Of a stretch of 44,656 nucleotides of DNA, positions 1 to 44,656 are shown one piece after another (position 1 is the stretch's first letter; each line of letters begins with the position of its first letter). The DNA is from a virus, in the IMG/VR virus record IMGVR_UViG_3300045391_001696, positions 1 to 44,656 of that record; one strand, given 5' to 3'. A program made the position numbers and the translations under genes. The notes under the pieces were generated by a model. It had not been told where the DNA came from. It did no database searches and saw nothing but the letters and a program-made list of their open reading frames with translations.

Positions 1-208
1 CGATGCAGCCGTGCTGGAGTCGCCAGACGATGCAGCCGTGCTGGAGTTGCCAGACGATGCAGCCTTGCTGGAGTTGCCAGACGATGCAGCCTTGCTGGAG
101 TTGCCAGACGATGCAGCCGTGCTGGAGTCGCCAGACGATGCAGCCGTGCTGGAGTTGCCAGACGATGCAGCCTTGCTGTAGTTGCCAGACGATGCAGCCG
201 TGCTGTTA
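1..208. repeat. 27-bp tandem repeat, 7 full units plus a degenerate 8th (plus-strand unit GATGCAGCCGTGCTGGAGTCGCCAGAC)
   Basis: Units start at 2, 29, 56, 83, 110, 137, 164 and 191. Only unit positions 10 (g/t), 16 (g/t) and 20 (c/t/a/g) vary. Confidence 0.95.
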
Positions 209-327
209 TAGCCTTTTGATTTCTCTTTGCATGACTTGTAATATTCCTCAAATCCGGTTGTTGCTATGCCAAAAACCTCTGCCAATGCGTCGATTTCTAA
301 TTCGGCTTGTGATTTTTCTTTTGTCAT
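1..327 (-). CDS. 5' part of a repeat-containing early protein. It has a unique 38-aa N-terminus followed by SG[NDYH][SY]S[TK]AAS nonapeptides, and continues at 44656 if the molecule is circular.
   Basis: ATG at 327 preceded by AGGGA. The reverse frame is open down to position 1, with a codon boundary exactly at 1. It is probably absent from the ORF track because it has no stop in the window. Confidence 0.7.
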   Translation of the reverse strand, partial: MTKEKSQAELEIDALAEVFGIATTGFEEYYKSCKEKSKGYNSTAASSGNYSKAASSGNSSTAASSGDSSTAASSGNSSKAASSGNSSKAASSGNSSTAASSGDSSTAAS

Positions 328-6573: not shown

Positions 6574-6589
6574 AAATAAAACGGCTGCG

Positions 6590-21351: not shown

Positions 21352-22269
21352 ATGGTAATGTCAACTGGTGCATTTTCAGAATTTCTATGGCCTGGTATTC
21401 TCGCCACATTCGGCGATGAGTACGACGATTATGATCCCATTTGGGAAAAAATCGTAGACAAGCATGAGTCCGATAAGGCTTTTGAGAAATTCCAGGGCAT
21501 CACTAATTATGGCCTCGCTGGTGTAAAAGACCAGGGCGCTGGCGTTCCCTACCGTGATAAATTCCAGGGCTTTCCCCGCGAAATTATCAACATCACCTAT
21601 GGTATCGGTTCGACCATCACCTATGAAATGATGCGTTATGACCAGTACGATAAATTCAAAGCGATTCCTCAGCAGCTCGCTCAGGCAGTTCGCCGCACGG
21701 AAGAAACGGTTGTTGGCAATTTGTTCAACAACGGCTTCTCCACCGCAGCAAACCCGACCCTGACGGCAGACGGAAAAAGCCTGTTCAACTCCGCACATTT
21801 GCTGGTTGGCGCTAACAACGTAACCCAAAAGAATACCCCCGCAACGGCATCCGATCTTTCTCAGTCGGCGCTTGAGCAGATGTATATCGATGTGGGCCGT
21901 TTTGTTGACGATCAGAACTTACCGATTGTTGTGCAGCCTCAGCGCTTGATGGTTCCGATTGAATCGCAGCATCTTGCCCGCAAGATTATGCAGACGGAAT
22001 ATGAGGTTGACTCCGGCAATAACACGATCAACCCGGTTTCTTCTTCCCGCATGCCGCTTGATCTGGTTATCAGCCCGTGGCTCACTGACGTTGATGCATG
22101 GTTTGTTAAAACCAACCAGGCAGACGGTACGGTATTTACGGATGTTGATCCGGTTATGCTTGACCGCGATAACGAATTTGACACCAAGAGCCTTAAATTC
22201 TCCGCAATGAGACTGTTCGGTGTCGGCGCGGTTAATTATCTCGGCTGGTACGGTTCACCTGGCGCATAA
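21352..22269 (+). CDS. major capsid protein (305 aa, presumed HK97 fold)
   Basis: Size and position after the scaffold and decoration genes; sequence character typical of capsid proteins. No family was assigned by eye. Confidence 0.7.
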   Translation: MVMSTGAFSEFLWPGILATFGDEYDDYDPIWEKIVDKHESDKAFEKFQGITNYGLAGVKDQGAGVPYRDKFQGFPREIINITYGIGSTITYEMMRYDQYDKFKAIPQQLAQAVRRTEETVVGNLFNNGFSTAANPTLTADGKSLFNSAHLLVGANNVTQKNTPATASDLSQSALEQMYIDVGRFVDDQNLPIVVQPQRLMVPIESQHLARKIMQTEYEVDSGNNTINPVSSSRMPLDLVISPWLTDVDAWFVKTNQADGTVFTDVDPVMLDRDNEFDTKSLKFSAMRLFGVGAVNYLGWYGSPGA

Positions 22270-24514: not shown

Positions 24515-25216
24515 ATGGGCGTGGGCGATGTCAGATATACCGTCCTTCAAACCGTAAATGAGGTGCAGCGCAAGCTTGGCCTGACGGAAACTGCGCTGTC
24601 TAATAACAAGCTTTCCATTCAGCTTATCGACTTCATAAATGATACCTGCAATGATCTCTCCGATTTTGGGAACTGGCAGGAAACATTGGTTACAGCCAAC
24701 GTAACATGCGTGTCCGGACAAGTCGATTATTTAGTAAATACCAGCGCTAATATTAAGAATATCGGTGACCTATATCTTTCGATTCGGCGTGGCCCGCTAT
24801 TGCACGTAACTATTGATGAAATGCGCGTTTTAACCCGCGTGACCGCCATCGGAACGCCAACCCAATATACGATATTTGGAACGGATGCCAGCAGCGGCAA
24901 TCCAATTATTCGCGTAAGGCCGAAACCGGCACAGGCTGAAGATGGATCTCTGTTCTCAGTTCTTTATTATATTAGAACGCCACTTTATACGACAAGCGAT
25001 AGTAATACAATCATACCGTTTCCAGCGCGCGTTGTGGTTCTCGGCACGCTTGCCAGGGCTATTTTAAATGAATCTGGTGGAGCTCCCACAGATCGCTATT
25101 CCGTTACTTATAAAGACTATCTTAATGCAAGAAAGGAGGCATTAAACCGCTTTAAAGGCGATACTGGTTGGGATGTATCATTTACTCCATCCCTGATTAG
25201 CAGGAGGAATAGATGA
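24515..25216 (+). CDS. putative head-tail adaptor (T7 gp11-like tail tubular protein A)
   Basis: Size (233 aa) and position before a 686-aa protein; pattern loosely similar to podovirus adaptors. Confidence 0.45.
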   Translation: MGVGDVRYTVLQTVNEVQRKLGLTETALSNNKLSIQLIDFINDTCNDLSDFGNWQETLVTANVTCVSGQVDYLVNTSANIKNIGDLYLSIRRGPLLHVTIDEMRVLTRVTAIGTPTQYTIFGTDASSGNPIIRVRPKPAQAEDGSLFSVLYYIRTPLYTTSDSNTIIPFPARVVVLGTLARAILNESGGAPTDRYSVTYKDYLNARKEALNRFKGDTGWDVSFTPSLISRRNR

Positions 25217-34345: not shown

Positions 34346-35098
34346 ATGATTCCACGCCCATATGAAAAAATGCGGCGCAATTTTTTAGAGCGGGTTAAAA
34401 GAGCCGACCGAGGGGAAACTGTTCTTGTAATTCCCGACCTTCATATACCATTCAACCATATCGATGCTTTAGATTTCCTCAAAGCCGTTAAGGATAAATA
34501 CCATCCCACCCAATTCGTATGCCTGGGCGATGAAATAGACGCAGCAAGCTTTTCCCGCTATACGCCAGATCCAGACGGAATGACTCCGGGGCAAGAGCTT
34601 GCCAAGGCCATTGAGGGCCTTGTGCCGTTCTATCTCGAATTCCCCAATATGCTGGTATGCGAGTCCAACCATACCGTAAGGCCATGGAAAAAGGCTTTTG
34701 ACGCTGGTTTGCCTGCCAGCTTCCTACCCAGTATAGCCAAGATTTTAAATGCTCCTGACGGCTGGCAATGGGCCTCACGATGGGAAATAGACGGCGTTTT
34801 ATACATACACGGCGATAATGGTAAATCAGGTCAGTATGCGGCAGTCAATTACATGAAGTCTGCCAAGCAATCTGTCGTAATCGGTCATATCCACAGTTAC
34901 GCCTCGGTATTCTATGAGGGTAATGATTTTGCCATGAATACGGGGTGTCTTATAGACCATACCGCATTCTGCTTTAAATACGCCAAGAACATGCTTACTA
35001 GGGTGAATCTGGGGTGCGGCATAGTTATTGACGGTAAGGAAGCCCATTTCATTCCCATGCGCTTAAACCCACAAGGACGCTGGCAGGGATATCTATGA
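34346..35098 (+). CDS. calcineurin-like metallophosphoesterase
   Basis: Motifs IPDLHIP, CLGDEID, ESNH, IHGDNG, IGHIH. Confidence 0.75.
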   Translation: MIPRPYEKMRRNFLERVKRADRGETVLVIPDLHIPFNHIDALDFLKAVKDKYHPTQFVCLGDEIDAASFSRYTPDPDGMTPGQELAKAIEGLVPFYLEFPNMLVCESNHTVRPWKKAFDAGLPASFLPSIAKILNAPDGWQWASRWEIDGVLYIHGDNGKSGQYAAVNYMKSAKQSVVIGHIHSYASVFYEGNDFAMNTGCLIDHTAFCFKYAKNMLTRVNLGCGIVIDGKEAHFIPMRLNPQGRWQGYL

Positions 35099-35286
35099 GG
35101 CAACCCATCAATCCACCCCTTATATACTACCGAGACGGCCATACGTGCGTTGAGCGGGTACTGGTATTCGATAATGAGACATATATCGAGAAGATGGATA
35201 ACCAGCATGTTTTGAATGTCATGGCTGGGCTTGCCTCGATTAATATGGCTGTATGGGCCAGAAAGACCCATGCGGAAGAAAATTAG
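35095..35286 (+). CDS. hypothetical protein (63 aa), last late-operon gene
   Basis: ORF track; ATGA overlap. Confidence 0.4.
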   Translation: MRQPINPPLIYYRDGHTCVERVLVFDNETYIEKMDNQHVLNVMAGLASINMAVWARKTHAEEN

Positions 35287-35377
35287 GGCTACTGGTTGAC
35301 TTTCGGGGATTTTCATATAGTATAAATGGACACCCTGATTGCAGCTTCCCTCGAAAAGAATACTGCGGTCTAAGATT

Positions 35378-35410
35378 AACCCGGTTTCAGCTTCGCTGGC
35401 CGGGTTTTTC
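35378..35410 (+). terminator. rho-independent terminator ending the late operon
   Basis: AACCCGG...CCGGGTT stem with inner CAGC/GCTG pairing, followed by TTTTC. Confidence 0.65.
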
Positions 35411-35440
35411 ATTGACTATGACTATTATAATATAAACAAC

Positions 35441-35457
35441 TGTCCTATGCAAGGACA
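35441..35457 (-). terminator. possible terminator hairpin for the convergent minus-strand cassette
   Basis: TGTCCT-atgca-AGGACA; on the minus strand it is followed by the T-rich GTTGTTTATATT. Confidence 0.3.
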
Positions 35458-35593
35458 ACAACGGTGCTTTATGCAACCGCTGATATACTGGCGGTATGAG
35501 ATTCGTGCTTATCATCGTATTGCTATCATTCCCGGCCTATGCGGCTTGCAGGACATCGCTTACAATGGGCGGTGATCTTCGGACGGAGTGCAG

Positions 35594-35962
35594 CTAGTCA
35601 GAGGTCTTAGTAGCGTTATCGCGCTTACCCCAGCCTACAGGACATTCGCACTTTCCCCATTGCGCGTTACATTCATTACAAAGGGTTTCACCCAATAAAA
35701 ACGAGGCTGAATTATGGCCGTCCGTATTCTGAGATGGGCTCCCGAAACCCTCTAAAATCAAGTCGCCTCTTGGAAGAAACTTTCCGTCATCCGTTTCATT
35801 GAGATCAAGACCAGCAGTATAGGGATGCTTGTATGAGTGCTTAAGATAAGACTGTATGATCCTGCGAAATTTATCTTCCGAAAGCGACATTTGTCCATAA
35901 TCTTCCTTTGGGGCTACCGAAGCTTCCTCAGCAAAGGCGGCTTTAAATGCTTCATCATCCAT
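35594..35962 (-). CDS. hypothetical Cys-rich C-terminus protein (122 aa)
   Basis: Track frame trimmed to ATG 35962, which has AAGGAG 7 nt upstream; C-terminus CNECNAQWGKCECPVGW. Confidence 0.5.
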   Translation of the reverse strand: MDDEAFKAAFAEEASVAPKEDYGQMSLSEDKFRRIIQSYLKHSYKHPYTAGLDLNETDDGKFLPRGDLILEGFGSPSQNTDGHNSASFLLGETLCNECNAQWGKCECPVGWGKRDNATKTSD

Positions 35963-36093
35963 TATCCCGCTCCTTATGGTAAAAACCAATATTGATTCTT
36001 GGGAGTTGAAAGATAAATGCGACCAGCCATAACCAGAGCAGGGCTGGAGAAATGGCAAAATCAAGCGCTCTCTTTTTGAGGGGGCTAATCAGC

Positions 36094-36303
36094 TTATCCA
36101 TTGCCAATCTCGTATCCAAAATATTTCTTGCCACTCATCTCGTCCTTCTGGTCTTGGGTGGTACATTCCATATGCTGATGCCCCCATTTGTCAGAATCAC
36201 TGTTTGGCTTCCCGACATTGGTCAAACGCACCATTACGCTCTTTCCTAACTCGACAGGTTCGCCACAGCGTAAGCAGGGATACGTATTATTGATCTGGTT
36301 CAT
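36094..36303 (-). CDS. small zinc-ribbon-like protein (69 aa)
   Basis: ORF track; PCLRCGEP...HQHMEC; ATGA overlap upstream. Confidence 0.5.
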   Translation of the reverse strand: MNQINNTYPCLRCGEPVELGKSVMVRLTNVGKPNSDSDKWGHQHMECTTQDQKDEMSGKKYFGYEIGNG

Positions 36304-36518
36304 GACATACCCTCCGTAGATTCTAGGCTCTTAAGATTTTTGATTTGATCGCGCAGTACATAAACGAATTTCGCTGCGGCCTCGTCCATCGTAATACCAT
36401 CAGGAATACGCACACCAAATCCCGTTTGCGTAGGAAAGATACTTAAAATATCTCTTCCACCCACGCCAAACGTTAGTTGGTTTATTTCGTTCTTATTAAT
36501 TTGCAAAATTTCGTTCAT
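36300..36518 (-). CDS. hypothetical protein (72 aa)
   Basis: ORF track; ATGA overlaps on both sides. Confidence 0.5.
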   Translation of the reverse strand: MNEILQINKNEINQLTFGVGGRDILSIFPTQTGFGVRIPDGITMDEAAAKFVYVLRDQIKNLKSLESTEGMS

Positions 36519-36685
36519 TTCTCGTCCTCCGATTTGTTCGTTAGGTGTTTAGCAAAAAATTCCTCTAATGCTTCTGTTATGGCTTCTTTCATAATACGCT
36601 TTTGTGCTCTGCAAATGGGGCAACCGCTTGCAATAGAACCCAACCATTCATGTCCACAGCTTCCAGTACATCTACCGTATGTCAT
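36515..36685 (-). CDS. small zinc-ribbon protein (56 aa), not in ORF track
   Basis: Hand-translated MTYGRCTGSCGHEWLGSIASGCPICRAQKRIMKEAITEALEEFFAKHLTNKSEDEK; stop overlaps the next ATG. Confidence 0.45.
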   Translation of the reverse strand: MTYGRCTGSCGHEWLGSIASGCPICRAQKRIMKEAITEALEEFFAKHLTNKSEDEK

Positions 36686-36701
36686 ATCATCACTTTCTAG
36701 G

Positions 36702-36863
36702 TTACTCTGTAATCGAGGTCACTTTATAGATTCCATTCGGCGGGGGCTTCATCAGCCCAACCCGCACAAGCGCTCTCTTGTACCAAGGCAAGCATTGCAA
36801 ATGACATGGCAACGGAATGTAAATTCGGTCTCCAGTCACCACTTCGATTCCATCTATTTTCAT
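36702..36863 (-). CDS. possible small protein (53 aa), not in ORF track
   Basis: Hand-translated MKIDGIEVVTGDRIYIPLPCHLQCLPWYKRALVRVGLMKPPPNGIYKVTSITE. Confidence 0.3.
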   Translation of the reverse strand: MKIDGIEVVTGDRIYIPLPCHLQCLPWYKRALVRVGLMKPPPNGIYKVTSITE

Positions 36864-36882
36864 AAATCACCCTATATTATCT

Positions 36883-37059
36883 TCAGTTATCAGCTATTGT
36901 AATAAAAGCAGCCATAGCTACTACGATATAAACTATACCCCATCCAATGCCGAATTTAATTGCTATGGCTATGTACGGTATAACCAGAGCGCAAATCCCC
37001 ACAGCCAACATCAAAGTCACCGCCGTTAGTACAAAAACAAATCTTTTCGCTAATTCCAT
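36883..37059 (-). CDS. small two-TM membrane protein (58 aa), not in ORF track
   Basis: Hand-translated MELAKRFVFVLTAVTLMLAVGICALVIPYIAIAIKFGIGWGIVYIVVAMAAFITIADN; AGGGA RBS. Confidence 0.45.
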   Translation of the reverse strand: MELAKRFVFVLTAVTLMLAVGICALVIPYIAIAIKFGIGWGIVYIVVAMAAFITIADN

Positions 37060-37077
37060 AACATCCCTATAAATATT

Positions 37078-37302
37078 TCATTTCCGGTTATCGTGTGCAA
37101 ATAATACCCCGAATGGGTCATTATGCTCGATTACTTCAATGTCCTCGAATAATAGCTTTCCATCCGAATATTCCAAATAGTCGTGTAAGTCCTCAAGATG
37201 AGTTTTGCCAAGCGCTATAACTTGCGGCTTGTGGCCGGTGTCTTTCACATAGCCCTCGATGCTGCCAACCAGGCCATTATACATCACGTTTCTATCTAGC
37301 AT
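37078..37302 (-). CDS. hypothetical protein (74 aa), first gene inward of attP
   Basis: Track frame trimmed from TTG 37323 to ATG 37302. Confidence 0.5.
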   Translation of the reverse strand: MLDRNVMYNGLVGSIEGYVKDTGHKPQVIALGKTHLEDLHDYLEYSDGKLLFEDIEVIEHNDPFGVLFAHDNRK

Positions 37303-37486
37303 GAGCGCTTCCCAGATGAGCAATCCCTTATTAACGATTTTAGTATAATGATAAATTTAACCATATAAATCTACTGTAACGGTATTGTGACGATTTAAAC
37401 CGTTTTCTACGGTTGTCATTTCTTCCGTTTCTTTCCCTGTAACCAGCACTGTGCTTGCATTTGGCCGTATTTTTGGTAAATCCATA

Positions 37487-37535
37487 GAGGACTCTGACTC
37501 CGTCAACCTAGGTTCGAATCCTAGTCCCCCAGCCA
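37487..37535 (+). other. attP core candidate: 3' 49 nt of a tRNA-Gln(CUG) gene (anticodon arm to CCA); not a complete tRNA
   Basis: Anticodon loop CTCTGAC (CTG at 37494-37496), T arm CTAGG-TTCGAAT-CCTAG, acceptor TCCCCCA, discriminator G, CCA. No matching 5' acceptor strand lies upstream. Confidence 0.7.
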
Positions 37536-37537
37536 CA

Positions 37538-38617
37538 CTATAACTTAGCATGCCTGCTCCTTTCAGCCGATTTTGCTTGTTTAGCACTCCGTTTGCCTTG
37601 TGACGATTTTGTGACGGTTCCCATAGCTTTATGCAGATCATCCGTCTTGAGAAACCAATAAGATTTCTCCGTTACTGCGATACTGTGATGCCCTAGTAAT
37701 TCCTTGAGGGTTTCAAGTTTGATATCGTCCTCACGGTAGCGCCAGCATGTGAAGGTGCGCCTTAGGTCGTGCAGGGTCACATTGGGTACTTTAGCCTCCT
37801 TGGCGGCCCTTTGAAGTGCCTTATTGAGCGTCTTAAATGGGATGCCCTTCTTATGCCAGAAAACCAAGTCTGTTTTAGTGTGACGAATTTGTGACTCTAG
37901 TATCGCAATGGCGCGTGCCCTCAAAGGAACAATACGGTCTTTATTAGCCTTAGTATTGATGACAGTCATTTCCCTCTTTTTTAGGTCAATCTGCTCCCAG
38001 CAAAGACTTATTAATTCCTCTGATCGCAGGCCGGTTTCAACGTCGAATTCGCACATATCGGCCTGAAGTTTACCAAGATGGGGAAGTATCTTCTCGAATT
38101 CCTTGCGGCTTAAATTGCGTGTCCTTGGCTGCCCCTCATCCATCTTCTTAATGGTAATCAAAGGATTATATTCAATCATATCCCTGTCGGCGGCGAAAGA
38201 GAATAGGGCGGACAGGTAAGAGCGATCTCGGTTTACTGAGCTTCCCGATACCTCCTTAGCCCTTGCATCCAGATACGCCACGATTTCAGCCTTTCCTATT
38301 TCACTGATAAGCTTGCCGGTAAAGTGTGCATCACAGGCATTCGCGCTAACTTCATAGCGAAGTACAGATTTAGGTTTGAGAACGATATCGCAATGCTCAA
38401 GGAATTTTTCCATAAGATCGTCATACAAAATATCTTCCTTAACCCCGTTACGTTTGCGCTTCAGGCGTTCGCGGGCATTGTCCCGCCATTCTCTCGCCTT
38501 TGTTGGCGACGTTTCCTTAGTAGATTCGTGGATTTTCCCGCCGCCAAGCTCAATCTTGCACCACCAGTACTTGCCCCTTTTATAGAGGTTGTCCATGTTC
38601 TTTGGCTTTGCTGGCAT
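37538..38617 (-). CDS. int: tyrosine recombinase (phage integrase)
   Basis: Arm-binding-type N-terminus LYKRGKYWWC; catalytic GLRSEE, HDLRRTF, LLGHHSIAVTEKSY. The stop codon is 3 nt from the tRNA fragment. Confidence 0.9.
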   Translation of the reverse strand: MPAKPKNMDNLYKRGKYWWCKIELGGGKIHESTKETSPTKAREWRDNARERLKRKRNGVKEDILYDDLMEKFLEHCDIVLKPKSVLRYEVSANACDAHFTGKLISEIGKAEIVAYLDARAKEVSGSSVNRDRSYLSALFSFAADRDMIEYNPLITIKKMDEGQPRTRNLSRKEFEKILPHLGKLQADMCEFDVETGLRSEELISLCWEQIDLKKREMTVINTKANKDRIVPLRARAIAILESQIRHTKTDLVFWHKKGIPFKTLNKALQRAAKEAKVPNVTLHDLRRTFTCWRYREDDIKLETLKELLGHHSIAVTEKSYWFLKTDDLHKAMGTVTKSSQGKRSAKQAKSAERSRHAKL

Positions 38618-38793
38618 GATAACTCCCTTTGCTTAAACCATTGACGGGCACGGCGTTCATCAAACAACCATTTCCCGCCATCTACAAGCTGAAATGCGCC
38701 AGGTATCTCGCCGGACTTGGCCATAGAGACAATCTGCCTGGGCGTGTAGGGAATGATTTCGGCAATACGCTGCGCTTCTACGTATTCAGTCAT
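38461..38793 (-). CDS. xis: excisionase-like HTH protein
   Basis: EAQRIAEIIPYTPRQIVSMAKSGEIPGAFQLVDGGKWLFDERRARQWF resembles AlpA/Xis-type wHTH proteins. The open frame runs 157 nt into int. Confidence 0.6.
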   Translation of the reverse strand: MTEYVEAQRIAEIIPYTPRQIVSMAKSGEIPGAFQLVDGGKWLFDERRARQWFKQRELSCQQSQRTWTTSIKGASTGGARLSLAAGKSTNLLRKRRQQRRENGGTMPANA

Positions 38794-38804
38794 CTCGATA
38801 CTCG

Positions 38805-39041
38805 CTAGCGTAATGTCCAATGTTTACGGTTACTAACTCCATCTTCACACCCCTCCTGAAAATGAATCCACGCACGAAAGCACTGCCTTCCCTCTGGGTT
38901 TTTAGGTTCAGAGAGAAAATATTCTACGGGATCTAATAATACCCATCCCGCTATTGGCTGCTTTGTAACGCCTTTGTTTCTGCCAACAGCCACATCAATG
39001 GATTGATATGGCGGCAACTCGTTCGTCAGTTCGTGGGTCAT
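38805..39041 (-). CDS. hypothetical protein (78 aa)
   Basis: ORF track. Confidence 0.5.
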   Translation of the reverse strand: MTHELTNELPPYQSIDVAVGRNKGVTKQPIAGWVLLDPVEYFLSEPKNPEGRQCFRAWIHFQEGCEDGVSNRKHWTLR

Positions 39042-39193
39042 GGCACAAGCCTCAGCGTATAATCGATGTCATCAATTAGATTCATGGATTGGATTTTTAT
39101 TTCACTGCCCTTGTAGCAAACCTTGCAAACAAGGCGCAAAAGTGCCTTGGCAATAGCAAAACAAACTTTCATTGTCAGATAGCGCCAATTCAT
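39038..39193 (-). CDS. possible small protein (51 aa), not in ORF track
   Basis: Hand-translated MNWRYLTMKVCFAIAKALLRLVCKVCYKGSEIKIQSMNLIDDIDYTLRLVP; ATGA overlaps at both ends. Confidence 0.4.
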   Translation of the reverse strand: MNWRYLTMKVCFAIAKALLRLVCKVCYKGSEIKIQSMNLIDDIDYTLRLVP

Positions 39194-39363
39194 TTATCGA
39201 CTCCTGGTTCATCGTTCTTACAAAACTCACCCCATGCAATAGGCGCTCCCGGCTTTCCCCACCAATTATCAGCGTCGATAGCGTCCTTTGCTGTAAACTC
39301 GCGCCCACAGGTATGCTTTGTGGTCTTTGAGCAGCAGAAGGTAGTATCTCTAAAGCAGATCAT
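39190..39363 (-). CDS. possible small Cys-rich protein (57 aa), not in ORF track
   Basis: Hand-translated MICFRDTTFCCSKTTKHTCGREFTAKDAIDADNWWGKPGAPIAWGEFCKNDEPGVDK; ATGA overlaps at both ends. Confidence 0.4.
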   Translation of the reverse strand: MICFRDTTFCCSKTTKHTCGREFTAKDAIDADNWWGKPGAPIAWGEFCKNDEPGVDK

Positions 39364-39614
39364 TTCGTCCTCTCATCGTTTGATTTAGTTGCCTTCGGCG
39401 GCTTACCCTTAAAGTCCTTTGGGAATTCAAGAACTGGCTTGATGATTCCGGCCATTATCCAAGCCACATCCTTTATGCAATCCTCCGGCGTTTCTCCGGC
39501 AATGGAAATGTCGCAATATGAATAGGGGCGTTTTTTGTTATCGTAATAAACCTCTTGCATCATGCAATGCGGCTCCCCGTTTTCTATGATTCTTACAATG
39601 CGGTAATTCCACAT
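39360..39614 (-). CDS. hypothetical protein (84 aa)
   Basis: Track frame trimmed to ATG 39614, 1 nt after the upstream stop at 39616. Confidence 0.5.
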   Translation of the reverse strand: MWNYRIVRIIENGEPHCMMQEVYYDNKKRPYSYCDISIAGETPEDCIKDVAWIMAGIIKPVLEFPKDFKGKPPKATKSNDERTK

Positions 39615-39615
39615 A

Positions 39616-40026
39616 TCAATTATCGCCTTTAGATAGGGTTCTCTTGCGGCGCATCGCTGCATATTTCTCGCAATAGCGATAATGGCCTCTCTCGGCTTCG
39701 ATGCTTTCTGCATAGCGCTTACCGTCAATCGTATAACAAGGAACGGGCGGAATACGCTTAATCATTTGCGCCAACTCCCAATATACTTCCTGTTTTGCAT
39801 CCCAAGCTATATCCCCAGAGTTTCTGCAATCGTAATCAATGGATGGCTTTTCTTTCGGAGCATTTTCTAGGATGCAATTAAGAAATGCCTTTATAGCCTC
39901 TGATCTATCGGGGTATTCCGAACCATATGTAAGGGGGTGTATATATGGATCAACACCGCAACTGCATATTTCTGGAATTTCGGCAGGCCCATTATGCAGG
40001 GCACAATCTGAAGCATGTTCTTTCAT
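39616..40026 (-). CDS. hypothetical Cys-containing protein (136 aa)
   Basis: ORF track. Confidence 0.55.
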   Translation of the reverse strand: MKEHASDCALHNGPAEIPEICSCGVDPYIHPLTYGSEYPDRSEAIKAFLNCILENAPKEKPSIDYDCRNSGDIAWDAKQEVYWELAQMIKRIPPVPCYTIDGKRYAESIEAERGHYRYCEKYAAMRRKRTLSKGDN

Positions 40027-40032
40027 AAAATC

Positions 40033-40551
40033 CTACTTAAGTTGAAATGCATTTTTCTTTATCCATTCGTGGTCAACCTCGGACGGATTGCGGTCTATAC
40101 ACCAAAGTCCACGGGTGCTGTCATATTCATGCTGTAATGTTGCAAGTTTACTCAACACCGGCTTGGGTGCAATCTGCATGGATTCGAGAAGATCGAGCAA
40201 CGGATAGCGTTCAACGCAGTCTGTAAAATTGCTTCCCAGAAGCGGAGCCTTTAAAACGGGTAATGCCTTCACTAGATCGATTAACGGAATCTCACGCGGT
40301 AAATGATCGACAAACCGCTCGTCTCTTACAGGCTGTCTTGATGCTTCGGCGAATTTATCAACTAGATCAAGGGCTGGGGAAGCCGTGGCAGCTATCATCG
40401 GTGCTTCCCCCATAGCTGCGATGGCCTCACGCAATTTACGTTTAAGCCAAGTATGACCAAGGCGCACATTCTCAGGCGTAATGATAGCCTCAAGATTAGC
40501 GCTCAGAAGTGAATGGATTGGCGGTTGTGTGGTCATGCTGTTACCAATCAT
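40033..40551 (-). CDS. hypothetical protein (172 aa; alternative start 40536)
   Basis: ORF track. Confidence 0.55.
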   Translation of the reverse strand: MIGNSMTTQPPIHSLLSANLEAIITPENVRLGHTWLKRKLREAIAAMGEAPMIAATASPALDLVDKFAEASRQPVRDERFVDHLPREIPLIDLVKALPVLKAPLLGSNFTDCVERYPLLDLLESMQIAPKPVLSKLATLQHEYDSTRGLWCIDRNPSEVDHEWIKKNAFQLK

Positions 40552-40666
40552 TATGAAGTTGTGGTGATTGACGATCTCCGCACTTTATGCAGATACCGTT
40601 AGCATTAATTCTATGGTTCTCGAAAAAGCAGAATAGCCATCGATTCCACCATTTATGAGTTGTCAT
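40541..40666 (-). CDS. possible small protein (41 aa), not in ORF track
   Basis: Hand-translated MTTHKWWNRWLFCFFENHRINANGICIKCGDRQSPQLHNDW; ATGA overlap upstream. Confidence 0.35.
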   Translation of the reverse strand: MTTHKWWNRWLFCFFENHRINANGICIKCGDRQSPQLHNDW

Positions 40667-40767
40667 GTCGGACACCCTACAGTTGCAATTAAATAAACCC
40701 CGCTTATTGCTCCGGTTATTGAAGCCGCAATAAACCAGTATAAGAACCAGATCAGCGAATCAGTCAT
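40663..40767 (-). CDS. possible single-TM micro-protein (34 aa), not in ORF track
   Basis: Hand-translated MTDSLIWFLYWFIAASITGAISGVYLIATVGCPT; GAGGAG RBS; ATGA overlaps. Confidence 0.35.
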   Translation of the reverse strand: MTDSLIWFLYWFIAASITGAISGVYLIATVGCPT

Positions 40768-40925
40768 CGACTTATCTCCTCAGCCGCTTCAATTAGCAGC
40801 GTAAAATTATCTCTGCCTACGTGTGTTTGAGTAGTAGCGCGAGCCATTTTAAGAAGCCTAACGGAGATACGCAGAAGGAAACGGCGTATGCTTCGACGCA
40901 CTAAATAATTATATTCACCAATCAT
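40764..40925 (-). CDS. possible small basic protein (53 aa), not in ORF track
   Basis: Hand-translated MIGEYNYLVRRSIRRFLLRISVRLLKMARATTQTHVGRDNFTLLIEAAEEISR. Confidence 0.35.
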   Translation of the reverse strand: MIGEYNYLVRRSIRRFLLRISVRLLKMARATTQTHVGRDNFTLLIEAAEEISR

Positions 40926-40936
40926 GCTCGTATTCA

Positions 40937-41164
40937 TCACTCATTCTCCAATGGTTCGGGTAGCGGTGTCCAATGTGTCGGTTTAAAATTGTGTGGCCAT
41001 CTTGCAAAAGACCCATCTGTTTCAAGCCATACGCACCACGGATCGCTCGTGTAGGGTTTGCCACCAGTGAATCCATTACAAACATTGAATGCCTGAACGA
41101 CAAACATAGTGTCAGGGAAAACCGTGCCGTTATTAATCTCAAGCCAACCGGAGTTCGTGTTCAT
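40937..41164 (-). CDS. DUF551-like protein (75 aa)
   Basis: C-terminus PTHWTPLPEPLE resembles the DUF551 signature THWMPLPEPP. Trimmed to ATG 41164 (ATGA overlap). Confidence 0.6.
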   Translation of the reverse strand: MNTNSGWLEINNGTVFPDTMFVVQAFNVCNGFTGGKPYTSDPWCVWLETDGSFARWPHNFKPTHWTPLPEPLENE

Positions 41165-41367
41165 TGCGGTTCCCTGATAAATTCGGTACAGCCGTACCAA
41201 TTATTGGTATGTAACCAGACAGGCTCTTTACTATTCATTGCCTGCACATGCTCGTTATTCTTAAGCGCAGCATCCACATATTCTTGCTTTGTATTGTAAT
41301 AATGAACCTCGGCGGTATCTAAATTGCCGCACGTGCTTAAGCCAAAGCATAATAATACCCATTTCAT
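41161..41367 (-). CDS. small secreted protein or lipoprotein (68 aa)
   Basis: Trimmed to ATG 41367. MKWVLLCFGLSTCGNLD has a signal peptide with a lipobox-like LSTC. Confidence 0.5.
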   Translation of the reverse strand: MKWVLLCFGLSTCGNLDTAEVHYYNTKQEYVDAALKNNEHVQAMNSKEPVWLHTNNWYGCTEFIREPQ

Positions 41368-41398
41368 ATTGTTTCCCCATCTATCAGTCCGGTGTTTG

Positions 41399-41794
41399 TC
41401 ATATTTTCCCCCCGCACATAAGCAACTCCATAACCTGCTCTGTAATCTTCCCAGCAATGTCTCGAAATATCGAGAACTGATCGACCGCCTGCTGGTACTC
41501 ATATTTTAATCTTACTGGCCTGCCGTTCACTTTGAAGAAGATGTGCCTTGCTCTGTCGTAATGAGATTCTTCGGTCTGCACATAGGAAGCATCAATGGAA
41601 GGAATATCAACGGTCACGCGATCAGTAATATCTTTCCAAATCTTTTCCTCATATTCTTTCGCCAGCCGAATAGAGTCATCCGTAGGTGCTCGATGCTCAT
41701 GCACTTCACGAGTAACATATTCTGTGCGTGTCTCTTGATGCCCCATAGAAAGCATTGCGCCTAACGCCAATAATTCTCTATCTTTCCTACTCAT
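41399..41794 (-). CDS. hypothetical protein (131 aa)
   Basis: ORF track. Confidence 0.55.
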   Translation of the reverse strand: MSRKDRELLALGAMLSMGHQETRTEYVTREVHEHRAPTDDSIRLAKEYEEKIWKDITDRVTVDIPSIDASYVQTEESHYDRARHIFFKVNGRPVRLKYEYQQAVDQFSIFRDIAGKITEQVMELLMCGGKI

Positions 41795-41814
41795 GACCTA
41801 TGAACCCTTTGTTG

Positions 41815-42900
41815 CTATATCGCCCCCAAGGTTGTCAGCATATTGGGCTGAACCATGGAAATTCGTTTGTTTGCCAATTCGATATATTCAGGATTCAATT
41901 CAATCCCGATATATTCACGCCCATGCTCTAAAGCTACGGCTCCCGTGGTGCCGCTGCCATTAAACGGATCCAGAATAATATCGCCAGGGCGAGAGCCAGC
42001 CAGTATGCACGGTTCAATCAGTTTCGGCGGATAGGTAGCAAAATGAGCTTCTGGATAGGGCTTTGTAGGGATTACCCATACAGAGCGTTTATTCCGCATT
42101 CCTGAGCACTGTTCTTCATGTGTCATATTGTCCAAACGCTCGTTAAACCCGGCATGGCGGCGGGAATGACCGCGCTGCTTATCCGAATGCTTTCCATTGA
42201 ATTTCTTAGCATCCTTAAAAACTGAACCGCGAATACCATTCTTCTCAGCGGTGGGTGCTGATTTTTGGTCCTCTTTTGCGCGGTCTTTACGAGCCAAAGT
42301 TCCGTATCCATCAATATCCCATACGCCAGGTTCTTTAATGGCTTCATGGTTATAGAAATACCTCTCCGATTTGCTTAAGAGGAAGATATACTCATGAGCT
42401 TTTGTCGGCCGATCGGTTACGGATTCCGGCATGGGATTGGGCTTGGACCAAATAATGTCTGAGCGCAGATACCAACCGGAGGCCTGCAATGCGAAAGCCA
42501 CGCGCCAGGGGATGCCAACCAAATCTTTGGGTTTTAGTCCATGCGGGGTATTGGGATTGCCGCCACCCCATCTTTTAACGCTTCTATCCTTTGGCTTACA
42601 TTGCTCCCAACCGGGCCGCTCTGATGCAAATGAACCTCCGCCACCCTTACCGCTGCCGGCATAGCTATCACCAAGATTTAGCCATAGCGTACCGTCATCT
42701 TTTAGCAGCTGGAAAACTAGGCTAAAAACCTCTGACATGGCTTCAACATATTGTTCTGGCGTTTCTTCTAGCCCCAGCTGGCCATCGCAATTGTAGTTAC
42801 GCAAACCCCAATATGGGGGGCTGGTAACGCATGACTGCACCTTAACCCCTTCATCGATAAGGCGTTGCATAACTTCAATACAGTTGCCGTTGTAAATCAT
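41815..42900 (-). CDS. beta-class DNA methyltransferase (N4-cytosine or N6-adenine), orphan
   Basis: Motif IV VTSPPYWG near the N-terminus and motif I LDPFNGSGTTG near the C-terminus. No adjacent restriction gene. Confidence 0.85.
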   Translation of the reverse strand: MIYNGNCIEVMQRLIDEGVKVQSCVTSPPYWGLRNYNCDGQLGLEETPEQYVEAMSEVFSLVFQLLKDDGTLWLNLGDSYAGSGKGGGGSFASERPGWEQCKPKDRSVKRWGGGNPNTPHGLKPKDLVGIPWRVAFALQASGWYLRSDIIWSKPNPMPESVTDRPTKAHEYIFLLSKSERYFYNHEAIKEPGVWDIDGYGTLARKDRAKEDQKSAPTAEKNGIRGSVFKDAKKFNGKHSDKQRGHSRRHAGFNERLDNMTHEEQCSGMRNKRSVWVIPTKPYPEAHFATYPPKLIEPCILAGSRPGDIILDPFNGSGTTGAVALEHGREYIGIELNPEYIELANKRISMVQPNMLTTLGAI

Positions 42901-43085
42901 TCTTTATATTTTCCACATCTTTTGCATTCCATACCAACCCCGTCCCCACTCATAAATCTGTGCAAACTATTTTGTGAGCCGAATGGTGGCAAATACCACT
43001 CATGGCCACGGAATGAGCATGAGCACACATAAGCAACGCCAATGATAATTAGTATAAATATTCCGCCCGCTAAATTCGGTTCCAT
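42897..43085 (-). CDS. small membrane-anchored protein with C-terminal CxxC (62 aa)
   Basis: ORF track; TM segment GGIFILIIIGVAYV; ATGA overlap with the methyltransferase start. Confidence 0.45.
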   Translation of the reverse strand: MEPNLAGGIFILIIIGVAYVCSCSFRGHEWYLPPFGSQNSLHRFMSGDGVGMECKRCGKYKE

Positions 43086-43088
43086 GAG

Positions 43089-43319
43089 CTATGAATCCCT
43101 CGATGGGTTACTTTGCTGTTCAACAAAGGTGGCAAACAGTTTGGCTGATTCTTCACCCATGACAGCAATAACAGTGTCACCATACGTCATGTGATACTGA
43201 CGACCAGACCATATGCCCGTGTCAGTATCCCGCACTCGGTAGCAAGCCAGTTTGATACCCCCGGCAATAAGAACGCCTTCGCGCCGGACAATGTCGTCTT
43301 TGTCATATTTATTTGTCAT
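43089..43319 (-). CDS. hypothetical protein (76 aa)
   Basis: ORF track. Confidence 0.5.
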   Translation of the reverse strand: MTNKYDKDDIVRREGVLIAGGIKLACYRVRDTDTGIWSGRQYHMTYGDTVIAVMGEESAKLFATFVEQQSNPSRDS

Positions 43320-43340
43320 GACCTACCTACATTTACTTGA

Positions 43341-43550
43341 TTAACTTGGTTGCTGGTCCGTGTAACCACAAGTGGCACAGATAAAATCAACGTATTCGCC
43401 GGGATTGTATTGCGAGGCATACCGCGAATCTATGCCGTGGTGAGTACGCCAGCTATCTTCGCACCCATGCGGGCATTTCATCCCCATTGGACGTGCGCGG
43501 TTGCCATTTTGGACATTGCACTGGTAAACGCTTTCTTTTACTGACATCAT
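43341..43550 (-). CDS. small Cys/His-rich (zinc-binding-like) protein (69 aa)
   Basis: ORF track; CPHGC...CATCG. Confidence 0.5.
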   Translation of the reverse strand: MMSVKESVYQCNVQNGNRARPMGMKCPHGCEDSWRTHHGIDSRYASQYNPGEYVDFICATCGYTDQQPS

Positions 43551-43651
43551 AAGACTCTCCTCCCGTCCGTTAATTCGTAGTTATTTCGTTGATCGTCTCT
43601 CCGACCTGTCACGAACGGTTTGCCAAGCCATCGTTCACTTGTCTCCGCCAT
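43547..43651 (-). CDS. possible micro-ORF (34 aa), not in ORF track
   Basis: Hand-translated MAETSERWLGKPFVTGRRDDQRNNYELTDGRRVL; ATGA overlap with the next gene; weak RBS. Confidence 0.25.
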   Translation of the reverse strand: MAETSERWLGKPFVTGRRDDQRNNYELTDGRRVL

Positions 43652-43792
43652 ATCTGGGCCTTGTGCGGAGATTAACTTAAACTTGTCACACCGTGGTAAT
43701 TCCGCTACCAAGCGGCAGTGCTTAAGCCAAACCCAGAGTTACTTTTTACCCTTGCGGGGTATCTCGTTATTATCCCTAGCCGTTATACGTAT

Positions 43793-44656
43793 CTATGCTG
43801 CTTCCTTAAGTTTCTCCGCGAACCGATCCGCGCCATATTGCCCCTTAACCAGCGCAGCAATCTGCTTTGCGGTATAGGTGTCATCTAGGCTCTTTCCGGT
43901 TGTCTCCACGAAATGACGGACACCCGCACCGCATGCACCAGTGACAGCACGGTAAATACTAATCCATTCCGTACCTGTAGCTTTTTTAGGAAGCTTGCCA
44001 TCGAACTTAGCAACGGCCTTATAGATTAAATCTTCACGCGCTTCCTTGATGGTCTTGCCATGCGCGGAATTGCCATTTTCTTCACTAACGACAAACAAGA
44101 TTTTTCCATCGTCGGTTTTGACTTTTTTCACACCCGCTTTATTGGAAATAACTCGAGAGAAAATACCGTCTGAGAAATCAACGGCTACCCATTTGCCACC
44201 CTCAACTATGTACCATTGGTCGGCTTTAAGTTTCTTTCCGTCTACAATGTCGGCTTTACCGCCTATAGGTATGCACTTACCGTCTTTTGCGATGTATTCA
44301 GAGGCCATTAAAAGATTCCCTTTATCACCCTTAACGGCGGCACGATAGCCCACGGCAGTACAGGCGCTATGTTCGCCAGACGATGCAGCCGTGCTGTAGT
44401 AGCCAGACGATGCAGCCGTGCTGTAGTTGCCAGACGATGCAGCCGTGCTGGAGTTGCCAGACGATGCAGCCGTGCTGTAGTGGCCAGACGATGCAGCCGT
44501 GCTGTAGTGGCCAGACGATGCAGCCTTGCTGGAGTCGCCAGACGATGCAGCCGTGCTGTAGTTGCCAGACGATGCAGCCTTGCTGTAGTTGCCAGACGAT
44601 GCAGCCGTGCTGGAGTCGCCAGACGATGCAGCCGTGCTGGAGTTGCCAGACGATGC
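43793..44656 (-). CDS. 3' part of the repeat-containing early protein: nonapeptide repeats followed by a 190-aa globular C-terminal domain of unknown function
   Basis: The frame of track ORF 43793-44353 stays open upstream to 44656, with the codon boundary at the window edge. The repeats read SG[NDYH][SY]S[TK]AAS. The track start is an internal GTG. Confidence 0.7.
   Translation of the reverse strand, partial: ASSGNSSTAASSGDSSTAASSGNYSKAASSGNYSTAASSGDSSKAASSGHYSTAASSGHYSTAASSGNSSTAASSGNYSTAASSGYYSTAASSGEHSACTAVGYRAAVKGDKGNLLMASEYIAKDGKCIPIGGKADIVDGKKLKADQWYIVEGGKWVAVDFSDGIFSRVISNKAGVKKVKTDDGKILFVVSEENGNSAHGKTIKEAREDLIYKAVAKFDGKLPKKATGTEWISIYRAVTGACGAGVRHFVETTGKSLDDTYTAKQIAALVKGQYGADRFAEKLKEAA
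44369..44656. repeat. 27-bp tandem repeat, 10 full units plus partial units; same family as 1-208
   Basis: Units begin at 44382 and recur every 27 nt to 44651; the last 60 nt equal positions 1-60. Confidence 0.95.

What the first reader, a model, noticed from the sequence alone, without database searches (positions are those of the whole stretch)
43793..44656. Hypervariable 27-bp in-frame repeat in which every difference is nonsynonymous
The gene spanning the window junction (43793-44656 joined to 1-327, minus strand) contains 16-18 tandem 27-bp units encoding SG-x-x-S-x-AAS.

Across all full units, 24 of 27 nt are invariant. Only three nucleotide positions vary, and each changes an amino acid:
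- Codon 3 is AAC/GAC/TAC/CAC; its first base samples all four nucleotides, giving N/D/Y/H.
- Codon 4 is TCC/TAC (S/Y).
- Codon 6 is ACG/AAG (T/K).
- There are no synonymous differences at all.

This pattern suggests concerted evolution combined with diversification at defined residues. Because the unit length is a multiple of 3, copy number can change without breaking the frame.

Alternative DNA-level reading: the array could be an iteron-type origin embedded in its initiator gene, as ori-lambda lies inside gene O. That would matter because no other replication gene is recognisable here.
Basis: partly seen in the sequence, partly recalled or inferred. Interest (0 to 1): 0.8.

Follow-up and report, generated by a model that had tools for sequence, protein, structure and literature searches.

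The report
Hypervariable repeat protein of a phage
A temperate phage's early gene encodes a protein built from many near-identical 9-amino-acid units that differ at only three positions. It belongs to a large, undescribed phage family that joins arrays of this kind to one conserved tail domain, so it is most likely a variable binding protein and not a replication origin.

Summary
A minus-strand gene (327..1 joined to 44656..43793) carries 27-nt in-frame units, TCTGGC-NAC-TMC-AGC-AMG-GCTGCATCG, encoding SG[NDHY][SY]S[TK]AAS. Only nt 7, 11 and 17 vary, and every variant changes an amino acid.

There are two caveats. The window ends overlap by exactly 60 nt inside the array, so copy number is unresolved at 11, 15 or 17 units. 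Also, "all nonsynonymous" is not significant within this window alone (P about 0.18).

The real signal comes from comparison across 25 related arrays (280 units). Synonymous sites are homogeneous within an array (heterozygosity 0.076) but differ between arrays (0.50). In contrast, nt 7, 11 and 17 vary in 100, 84 and 96% of arrays. This indicates concerted evolution with diversity maintained at three residues.

AlphaFold2 predicts a beta-solenoid with one strand and one turn per unit. The C-terminal module of about 125 aa (invariant H, K, YRxxTGACxxG) has no Pfam, NCBIfam, PADLOC or PDB match. It is fused in other phages to unrelated hypervariable arrays, some of them LRR-like.

Relatives carry separate replication genes (DnaB, HTH_36 or a replisome organizer), some have only one or two units, and their unit DNA is not conserved. 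The iteron-origin reading is therefore not supported. The protein's function is unknown; a variable binder of a host factor is inferred.

The parts
214..327 (-). Start codon (ATG at 327-325) and the N-terminal 38 aa (MTKEKSQAELEIDALAEVFGIATTGFEEYYKSCKEKSK). This is a conserved amphipathic helix that probably caps the solenoid.
   Evidence: Translation; conserved in 109 homologues; AF2 helix at residues 7-36.
190..213 (-). Degenerate first unit, GYNSTAAS.
1..189 (-). 5' part of the array: 7 full 27-nt units (NYSK, NSST, DSST, NSSK, NSSK, NSST, DSST).
1..60 (.). Exact 60-nt duplicate of 44597-44656. It is the terminal overlap of a contig that was broken or circularised inside the array.
   Evidence: Many related contigs also end inside their arrays.
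44381..44656 (-). 3' part of the array: 6 nt of a unit tail, then 10 full units (NSST, DSST, NYSK, NYST, DSSK, HYST, HYST, NSST, NYST, YYST). The first two units belong to the 60-nt overlap.
44201..44380 (-). Degenerate last unit (SGEHSACTA), followed by a cap and beta-hairpin segment (GYRAAVKGDKGNLLMASEY...WYIVEGGKWVAV). This segment is shared only with the 9-aa-repeat subfamilies.
   Evidence: AF2 confidence is low for residues 194-223.
43796..44200 (-). Conserved C-terminal module of about 125 aa, within the 135-aa stretch that was modelled. It has 4 strands and a helix, then a helical half. H47, K61, Y83, T87, G88, A89 and C90 are invariant in both alignments; R84, G93, A54, D11, G48 and L58 are invariant or at least 90% conserved.
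   Evidence: Alignments; AF2 pLDDT 90; no Pfam, NCBIfam, PADLOC or PDB relative.
43793..43795 (-). Stop codon TAG.

Best explanation
The array is the coding sequence of a repeat (solenoid) domain in an early-operon protein of a temperate SU10-like phage.

Each 9-residue unit supplies a constant scaffold (S-G, S, A-A-S) and three variable residues. Two lie in the turn (x3, x4) and one at the start of the strand (x6). These residues come from a narrow alphabet typical of binding sites: D/N/Y/H at x3, Y/S/N at x4 and T/K at x6. Each alternative is reachable by a single base change (NAC, TMC, AMG).

Unequal recombination or slippage between the near-identical 27-nt units adds, removes, duplicates and homogenises units. 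That process keeps synonymous sites uniform within a genome. Selection, or less likely local hypermutation, keeps the three surface positions different from unit to unit.

The array is joined to a constant C-terminal module. Other phages fuse the same module to quite different hypervariable arrays, so the protein most likely works as variable binding surface plus constant functional module. It would be aimed at a host or competitor macromolecule early in infection; anti-defence or host take-over are candidate roles.

Shown here: the repeat anatomy, the evolutionary pattern, the size and architectures of the family, the genomic position, and the absence of known homologues. Inferred: the solenoid fold (AF2 only), surface exposure of the variable residues, the binding role and the target.

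The confidence of 0.65 refers to the overall reading (a protein-level hypervariable repeat domain evolving by concerted evolution with maintained diversity, acting as a variable binder). The evolutionary part alone would rate about 0.85. The specific binding, anti-defence or host-directed role would rate about 0.35.
For: - Unit anatomy and the three variable nucleotides.
- Homologues: 355 with the same N-terminus, 1-15 units and the same C-terminus.
- Concerted evolution with maintained diversity: (within-array versus between-array heterozygosity 0.076 versus 0.50 at third positions, and 0.62, 0.41 and 0.43 at nt 7, 11 and 17).
- Codon bias cannot explain the uniformity: the four Ser positions of the unit each keep their own codon (TCT, TCC, AGC, TCG) in every unit.
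- Recombination or recurrence: 8 of the 16 possible three-site haplotypes are present in this array.
- Residue usage over 605 units: x3 is D 35, N 25, Y 25%; x4 is Y 39, S 28, N 15%; x6 is T 50, K 43%.
- Copy-number change: a 5-unit in-frame indel between phages 99.4-99.75% identical.
- Predicted fold: AF2 gives one 5-residue strand and one 4-residue turn per unit, pLDDT about 80.
- Other architectures: the same C-terminal module is fused to at least 8 other array types, some of them LRR-like. These show the same pattern of a few hypervariable codons and, in most, quiet synonymous sites.
- Family size: 1211 clusters at 50% identity with E<=1e-10. The profile also covers LRR-like N-terminal positions, so repeat-only matches such as P0235 inflate the count. 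No globular domain fusions were found.
- Genomic position: the repressor-proximal early operon, beside Erf/Rad52-type recombinases, in the window and in relatives.
Against: - There is no functional evidence of any kind. The family has no characterised member, and no host is known because all homologues come from metagenomes or MAGs.
- The solenoid rests on AF2 alone, which tends to give regular beta-structures for any perfect repeat. Foldseek finds no solved analogue.
- Model coordinates could not be inspected, so exposure of x3, x4 and x6 is inferred from strand/turn positions.
- Selection for diversity was not separated from site-specific hypermutation or from repeated reshuffling of a few old unit types.
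- Short-read assemblies may collapse or mis-order units, so part of the apparent copy-number variation could be technical.
Confidence: 0.65

Rival explanations
1. Iteron-type replication origin embedded in its initiator gene, as ori-lambda lies within gene O. The protein would bind the 27-bp repeats in its own gene and start replication.
For: The repeats are tandem and direct, and no replication gene is recognisable in this window. A 26%-GC 80-nt patch lies at about 622-701.
Against: - Relatives carry separate replication genes: DnaB plus an HTH_36 protein in the opposite operon, or a replisome organizer.
- Some homologues have only one or two units.
- Unit DNA is not conserved between relatives at synonymous sites while the peptide is.
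- The same C-terminal module sits behind unrelated 8-22-aa arrays.
- The variable bases fall exactly on codon positions 1 and 2.
- The array is 62% GC, and the AT-rich patch lies about 400 nt away in an intergenic region.
- No match to any initiator family.
Confidence: 0.04
2. A neutral low-complexity spacer or linker. The three sites would vary simply because they are the only unconstrained residues, with no selection for diversity and no binding role.
For: The composition is low-complexity and Ser/Ala/Gly-rich. Copy number ranges from 1 to more than 20 without any obvious constraint. AF2 solenoids for perfect repeats can be artefacts.
Against: If homogenisation were neutral, it would erase variation at the three sites as efficiently as at synonymous sites. 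Instead they stay highly polymorphic in nearly every array while synonymous sites are uniform. The restricted alphabet (D/N/Y/H, Y/S/N, T/K) recurs in unrelated array types fused to the same module.
Confidence: 0.15
3. Targeted mutagenesis by a diversity-generating retroelement, or gene conversion from silent cassettes.
For: Variation is confined to a few codons of NAC type, and nt 7 samples all four bases.
Against: - No reverse transcriptase was found among the 40 longer ORFs scanned with Pfam.
- There is no template repeat and no extra copy of the unit elsewhere in the early regions searched, 1-7500 and 35000-44656.
- Other adenines in the unit (nt 8, 13, 16, 24) are invariant, and nt 11 and 17 are mostly C.
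Confidence: 0.02
4. Assembly artefact: the array, or its apparent variation, is produced by short-read mis-assembly.
For: The contig ends lie inside the array with a 60-nt overlap. L089 suggests a different path through the array. Many related contigs break in their arrays.
Against: Arrays of 5-21 units are fully spanned inside long contigs from many independent samples. The reading frame and flanking domains are always intact. Two independent assemblies give the same shorter allele. Only copy number and unit order in this window are in doubt, not the feature itself.
Confidence: 0.04
5. A Ser/Thr-rich acceptor for O-glycosylation by the phage's own glycosylation cassette (GT8, epimerase, cytidylyltransferase, Maf/MptE-like at 9437-15188).
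For: The window encodes such a cassette, and each repeat unit has four or five Ser/Thr residues.
Against: The cassette lies in the structural module, far from this early gene. The flanks fetched for relatives that carry the repeat gene show no such genes nearby. This reading is pure speculation.
Confidence: 0.03

Closest known systems
Hypervariable repeat proteins of the TALE type (repeat-variable residues), and the hypervariable LRR proteins of Flavobacterium psychrophilum and Dictyostelium purpureum (Altae-Tran et al. 2020, PMC10392669)
   Same: Near-identical tandem units carry two or three localised hypervariable residues, and units are rearranged, gained and lost between relatives. The Dictyostelium di-residue is dominated by Y, D, H and N, the same alphabet as x3 and x4 here.
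   Different: The unit here is 9 aa and predicted to form a beta-solenoid, not a 34-aa helical repeat or an LRR. The protein is phage-encoded, made early and lacks a signal peptide. The conserved C-terminal module is unrelated to anything described. No ligand or recognition code is known.
RTX nonapeptide beta-roll (GGxGxDxUx)
   Same: The period is 9 residues, with one short strand and one turn per unit in the prediction.
   Different: There is no GGxGxD calcium-binding motif. The core positions are Ala/Ser rather than large hydrophobic residues. Foldseek gives no significant match; 6sus scores E=3.5.
ori-lambda iterons inside gene O
   Same: Direct repeats lie inside a phage early gene.
   Different: Lambda has 4 iterons of about 19 bp next to an AT-rich region, inside a recognisable initiator gene. 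Here there are 11-17 units that are GC-rich, constrained at codon level and variable in number, in a gene that coexists with separate replication modules in relatives.
DGR variable proteins
   Same: Diversity is focused on a few codons of a phage protein, with NAC/NNC-type codons.
   Different: There is no RT, no template repeat and no adenine specificity.
PHROG 4433 and 27197 (unknown function), plus an unannotated 245-aa ORF of Tetrasphaera phage TJE1 and XCD03121.1 of 'Dulem virus 31'
   Same: These are sequence relatives. TJE1 and Dulem carry the same C-terminal module behind LRR-like or SSGDYAQLA arrays. TJE1 is a cultured phage, and its gene also lies next to an ERF gene.
   Different: None has been characterised. 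TJE1 has a different repeat type with only 3-4 units, and GenBank splits the gene into orf50 (wrong strand) and orf51.

Membership tests
Iteron origin within an initiator gene (lambda O/ori type) | The gene product is a replication initiator | tested here: not met
   There is no Pfam, PHROG-function, NCBIfam or PDB match. Relatives have separate replication genes: DnaB plus HTH_36, or a replisome organizer.
Iteron origin within an initiator gene (lambda O/ori type) | Repeat DNA sequence and number are conserved among relatives, with an adjacent AT-rich unwinding element | tested here: not met
   Synonymous sites differ between arrays. Unit number ranges from 1 to over 20. The array is 62% GC, and the nearest AT-rich patch is about 400 nt away.
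Iteron origin within an initiator gene (lambda O/ori type) | The protein binds the repeats and the segment drives replication | not testable with these tools
   This needs an EMSA and a plasmid replication assay.
Diversity-generating retroelement target | Reverse transcriptase plus a template repeat in cis | tested here: not met
   No RT domain was found in the ORFs scanned. No second copy of the unit was found elsewhere in the early regions searched.
Diversity-generating retroelement target | Variation restricted to template adenines | tested here: not met
   nt 8, 13, 16 and 24 are A and invariant, while nt 11 and 17 are mostly C.
Hypervariable tandem-repeat binding proteins (TALE-like or hypervariable-LRR concept, PMC10392669) | Near-identical tandem units with variation localised to a few positions | tested here: met
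Hypervariable tandem-repeat binding proteins (TALE-like or hypervariable-LRR concept, PMC10392669) | Unit subtypes rearranged, gained and lost among relatives | tested here: met
   A 5-unit indel separates phages 99.4-99.75% identical.
Hypervariable tandem-repeat binding proteins (TALE-like or hypervariable-LRR concept, PMC10392669) | The variable residues form a ligand-binding surface or code | not testable with these tools
   The only evidence is the AF2 strand/turn pattern. No ligand is known.
RTX beta-roll | GGxGxDxUx calcium-binding nonapeptide | tested here: not met
   The unit is SGxxSxAAS. There is no Pfam RTX hit and no significant fold match.
PHROG 4433 (unknown function) | Significant profile match | tested here: met
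   E=1.6e-12 over residues 38-249. The family carries no functional annotation.
YdhT (NCBIfam PRK09946) | Score above the curated cut-off of 300 bits | tested here: not met
   The score is 41 bits and covers the repeat region only.

The most novel reading that the evidence does not exclude
A large, undescribed phage protein family (over 1000 clusters at 50% identity) works as modular, evolvable recognition proteins. Interchangeable solenoid arrays (9-aa, 8-aa, LRR-like 20-22-aa) read a target through a two- to four-residue code per unit. Recombination between units rapidly re-tunes that code. A constant C-terminal module (invariant His, Lys, Tyr-Arg and Thr-Gly-Ala-Cys) delivers a common activity against a host or rival-phage component. 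This would be a phage-side counterpart of TALEs or variable lymphocyte receptors, engaged in an arms race.
Probability: 0.2. Interest if true: 0.85.

Novelty: new variant of a known kind. Interest (0 to 1): 0.62.

Why it matters
If the inference is right, temperate phages of many lineages carry an early-expressed protein whose specificity domain is rebuilt by simple unit recombination. That would be a cheap route to diversification that needs no reverse transcriptase.

The family has no Pfam, NCBIfam or PDB relative, yet it comprises more than a thousand sequence clusters. It is therefore a sizeable blind spot in phage annotation.

Its position beside recombinases in the early operon makes it a candidate for the still poorly catalogued anti-defence or host-take-over functions.

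There is also a practical point. These arrays systematically break short-read phage assemblies and create terminal overlaps, so circular or DTR calls and copy numbers at such loci should be treated with care.

Tried and rejected
- Protein family scans of the full protein and of the C-terminal module gave no informative family. This covers Pfam, NCBIfam and PADLOC. The only hits were sub-threshold repeat matches (YdhT, collagen-like adhesins, LRR, ice nucleation, T4 gp5).
- The PDB sequence profile gave only spurious additive WD40 hits.
- Foldseek against PDB found nothing significant for the full model or for the C-terminal module.
- Foldseek against BFVD returned only uncharacterised family members.
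- A HicB-like fold for the first half of the module was considered, based on the motif G-x-T-x-x-EA and a rank-23 Foldseek hit to 6g1n at E=3.2. No search supported it.
- The megablast search of the phage collection found no near relative.
- An exact 24-mer from the array/C-terminus boundary found nothing in metagenome or viral contigs.
- The genome-contig scan gave only 5 MAG contigs binned to unrelated taxa, so no host could be assigned.
- GC skew follows gene orientation and says nothing about an origin.
- Promoter and terminator scans around the gene were at chance level.
- PHROG scans of 19 neighbouring small ORFs gave no function, apart from the Erf-like recombinase that was scanned with them.
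- Literature searches for the motifs and for phage hypervariable repeats found no description of this family. Only the general framework of PMC10392669 applies.
Full report
**1. What is in the sequence**

The window behaves as a circle cut inside a repeat. On the minus strand an ORF starts at ATG 327-325, runs off base 1, resumes at 44656 and stops at TAG 43795-43793. TRF reports period-27 arrays at 1-205 and 44375-44656.

In register, every full unit reads TCTGGC-NAC-T[C/A]C-AGC-A[C/A]G-GCT-GCA-TCG, encoding SG[N/D/H/Y][S/Y]S[T/K]AAS. Only nt 7, 11 and 17 vary. These are codon positions 1, 2 and 2, and no synonymous variant exists.

Two qualifications apply.

- The two window ends share an exact 60-nt overlap (1-60 = 44597-44656); a trivial 6-nt overlap also exists.
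  - A naive join gives an irregular AAS-AS-SG junction.
  - Removing 60 nt gives 15 full units and removing 6 nt gives 17.
- A second JGI contig (L089, 3734 nt) is 100% identical to the window over 3705 nt and reaches 29 nt further into the array.
  - It has an NYSK unit where the 60-nt join has NSSK. That fits a path of only 11 units, or a polymorphism.
  - Copy number and order are therefore unresolved.

Of the 80 related viral loci fetched, a large share begin or end inside their arrays. Some contigs have the two halves of the gene at their two ends, for example L004/L034 and L017/L018. These arrays routinely break short-read assemblies.

**2. Is the pattern more than chance?**

Within this window alone it is only weakly so. 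For the consensus unit, 57 of 80 non-stop single-base changes are nonsynonymous, so five of five nonsynonymous variants has P about 0.18.

The strong signal comes from comparison. I extracted 25 arrays (280 units) of the same SGxxSxAAS type from related contigs.

- **Between genomes:** consensus units differ freely at synonymous sites, for example TCT/TCG/TCC/AGT for the first Ser and GCT/GCA/GCC/GCG for Ala. Between-array heterozygosity at third positions is 0.50.
- **Within an array:** those same sites are almost uniform, at 0.076.
- **At the three hypervariable sites:** nt 7, 11 and 17 have within-array heterozygosity of 0.62, 0.41 and 0.43. They are variable in 100, 84 and 96% of arrays.

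Codon bias cannot explain the uniformity. The four Ser positions of the unit use four different codons (TCT, TCC, AGC, TCG), each fixed at its own position in every unit.

Eight of the 16 possible three-site haplotypes occur in this array. The sites are therefore reshuffled or hit repeatedly.

This is the signature of concerted evolution (unequal exchange or slippage homogenising units) with diversity actively maintained at three residues.

There is direct evidence for unit turnover. L003 and L087/L088 come from three assemblies and are 99.4-99.75% identical over about 13 kb. They differ by a 135-nt, five-unit in-frame indel bounded by repeated NSSI-VHS units.

**3. The protein and its family**

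A search with the C-terminal part found 355 metagenomic homologues. Full-length members are 241-368 aa with the same plan:

- a conserved N-terminal helix of about 38 aa;
- 1-15 strict units (up to 21 in contigs that span the array);
- a conserved C-terminal region of about 190 aa.

Over 605 units the variable positions use a narrow alphabet. x3 is D 35, N 25, Y 25 and E 7%. x4 is Y 39, S 28 and N 15%. x6 is T 50 and K 43%.

AlphaFold2 with 109 sequences predicts the following:

- a long N-terminal helix (residues 7-36);
- a strictly periodic element with a 5-residue strand (x6-A-A-S-S) and a 4-residue turn (G-x3-x4-S) in every unit, pLDDT about 80;
- a poorly defined segment (residues 194-223);
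- a confident C-terminal domain (pLDDT above 90).

The three variable residues thus sit in the turns and at the strand entry. That is consistent with exposure, but it is not proven. I could not inspect coordinates, and AF2 tends to regularise perfect repeats.

**4. The C-terminal module has other partners**

More distant viral loci keep only the last ~125 residues. This module is modelled at pLDDT 90 as four strands and a helix followed by a helical half. In two independent alignments its His, Lys and Tyr-Arg-x-x-Thr-Gly-Ala-Cys-x-x-Gly motif are invariant or at least 90% conserved.

In those loci the module follows entirely different tandem arrays:

- SSGDYAQIG (9 aa);
- GxSSTIKA, GWNCTFKT and WDSSRVEA (8 aa);
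- LRR-like GGxLxLxSVTSLPEGFNPTV and GGxLxLxNTGITSLPDNLTV (20 aa);
- a 21-aa and a 22-aa unit.

At DNA level these arrays repeat the pattern. They have two to four hypervariable codons, mostly single-base alternatives (GAC/TAC/AAC, TAT/TCT, AAG/ACG, CAA/CGA). Synonymous sites are quiet in most of them, with third-position heterozygosity of 0.000 in L029 and L031.

A profile search of 1.84 billion representatives found 2210 clusters at E<=1e-3, 1211 at E<=1e-10 and 520 at E<=1e-30. These counts are upper estimates, because the profile also covers LRR-like N-terminal positions and picks up repeat-only matches such as the 2132-aa P0235. Pfam scans of 52 long members show only repeat families (LRR, ice nucleation, gp5-like) and no globular partner domain.

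The module itself has no detectable relative:

- Pfam;
- NCBIfam;
- PADLOC;
- PDB sequences (only spurious WD40 sums);
- PDB folds (best E=1.1).

BFVD returns only uncharacterised phage proteins.

Two deposited genomes carry members.

- **Tetrasphaera phage TJE1 (cultured):** the 245-aa ORF is mis-annotated as two genes on opposite strands and lies next to an ERF gene.
- **'Dulem virus 31':** the member has an SSGDYAQLA array repeated 11 times.

**5. Genomic setting**

The window is a temperate, SU10-like phage. Its recognisable genes are as follows.

| Gene | Coordinates | Strand |
|---|---|---|
| Integrase | 37538-38617 | - |
| CI-like repressor | 4441-5028 | - |
| Rad52/Erf-like annealing protein | 1900-2643 | - |
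| N6/N4 methyltransferase | 41815-42900 | - |
| RusA | 5744-6181 | + |
| Large terminase | 7420-8766 | + |
| SU10-type portal | 15098-17293 | + |
| SU10-type adaptor | 24515-25216 | + |
| Capsid protein | 21352-22269 | + |

The repeat gene lies in the long leftward early operon that runs from the repressor region to the integrase, among small ORFs of unknown function.

Relatives have the same placement, beside ERF, SSB and Gp157, upstream of the integrase. In lambdoid phages this region is known, from general knowledge, to hold recombination, host-interference and anti-restriction genes. That makes an early, intracellular host-directed role plausible but does not prove it. No signal peptide or transmembrane segment is evident in the N-terminus (sequence inspection).

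**6. The origin hypothesis**

The evidence nevertheless goes against an iteron origin in an initiator.

- Homologous phages carry separate replication genes: DnaB plus an HTH_36 protein in the opposite operon, or a 'replisome organizer'.
- Some homologues have one or two units (P0063, P0008).
- The units are conserved as peptide, not as DNA.
- The module accepts unrelated arrays.
- The variable bases are tied to codon positions.
- The array is 62% GC against 47% for the genome. The nearest AT-rich patch (26% GC, about 622-701) lies some 400 nt away in an intergenic region.
- GC skew simply follows transcription direction.

Binding and replication assays remain the formal test.

**7. Other rivals**

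- **DGR.** No reverse transcriptase was found in the ORFs scanned. No template copy was found in the early regions searched. Other adenines in the unit are invariant.
- **Neutral linker.** This reading cannot explain why homogenisation spares exactly three sites in nearly every array, nor why the same residue alphabet recurs in unrelated arrays.
- **Assembly artefact.** Only copy number and order here are in doubt. Many arrays are spanned inside long contigs.

**8. Comparison with what is known**

In concept this belongs with hypervariable tandem-repeat recognition proteins. Examples are TALE repeat-variable residues and the hypervariable LRR proteins catalogued by Altae-Tran et al. (PMC10392669). 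In that paper the Dictyostelium di-residue is likewise dominated by Y, D, H and N.

It differs in several ways. The unit is 9 aa with predicted beta-solenoid geometry and no RTX calcium motif. The protein is phage-encoded and made early. The constant module has no known relative. I found no paper describing the family.

**9. Verdict**

The 'concerted evolution plus diversification' reading is supported and generalised, and the origin reading is not supported. The function remains inferred. I rate it a new variant of a known kind, of moderate to high interest. The interest lies mainly in the size and modularity of the undescribed family and in the clean evolutionary signature.

Noticed in passing
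window 8763-15188 (+): Between the large terminase and the portal lies a set of sugar-modification genes: a GT8 glycosyltransferase (9437-10255), an NAD-dependent epimerase/dehydratase (10935-11927), a cytidylyltransferase plus methyltransferase (12763-13473) and an MptE/Maf-like protein (13470-15188). Together they resemble a nonulosonic-acid protein-glycosylation cassette placed inside a phage structural module.
   Followed up: no
window 1-60 and 44597-44656; many related loci (L004/L034, L017/L018, L010-L013 and others): Contig ends fall inside the repeat array, here with an exact 60-nt overlap. Related IMG/VR contigs show the same thing, so these arrays systematically break short-read assemblies. 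The terminal overlaps they create may be read as direct terminal repeats.
   Followed up: partly
L090 3809-4546 (Tetrasphaera phage TJE1, HQ225832, about 39130-39867): A 245-aa plus-strand ORF is not annotated as such. It has LRR-like 20-aa units and the conserved C-terminal module. GenBank has orf50 on the opposite strand and a truncated orf51 in its place. An ERF gene lies just downstream.
   Followed up: partly
L091 (PP511318.1, 'Dulem virus 31'): This 35.8-kb record has a replisome organizer, YopX and a family member with an SSGDYAQLA array repeated 11 times. It is classified as Microviridae, which does not fit its size or gene content.
   Followed up: no
L003 6001-7146 versus L087 8001-9020 and L088 2579-3598: Phages from three assemblies are 99.4-99.75% identical over about 13 kb. 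They differ by a 135-nt (5-unit) in-frame indel in the array.
   Followed up: yes
window 41333-41346 and 43718-43731: An exact 14-nt direct repeat, GTGCTTAAGCCAAA, occurs at two sites in the leftward early region. One copy lies about 60 nt downstream of the repeat gene's stop codon. It is unexplained.
   Followed up: no
window 3-482 (+): A 159-aa antisense ORF runs through the array. It is most likely a by-product of stop-free repeats and not a gene.
   Followed up: no
window 5295-7400 (+): The rightward early operon holds only small ORFs before the terminase: a RecA-dependent-nuclease/DUF968-like protein at 5490-5747 and RusA at 5744-6181. Unlike relatives L086 and L087, it has no DnaB or initiator. 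How this phage replicates is unclear.
   Followed up: partly
repeat regions of the window protein and of L029: The NCBIfam model for E. coli YdhT (PRK09946) weakly matches the 9-aa arrays, at 41 and 87 bits against a cut-off of 300. YdhT may contain a similar short-period repeat.
   Followed up: no
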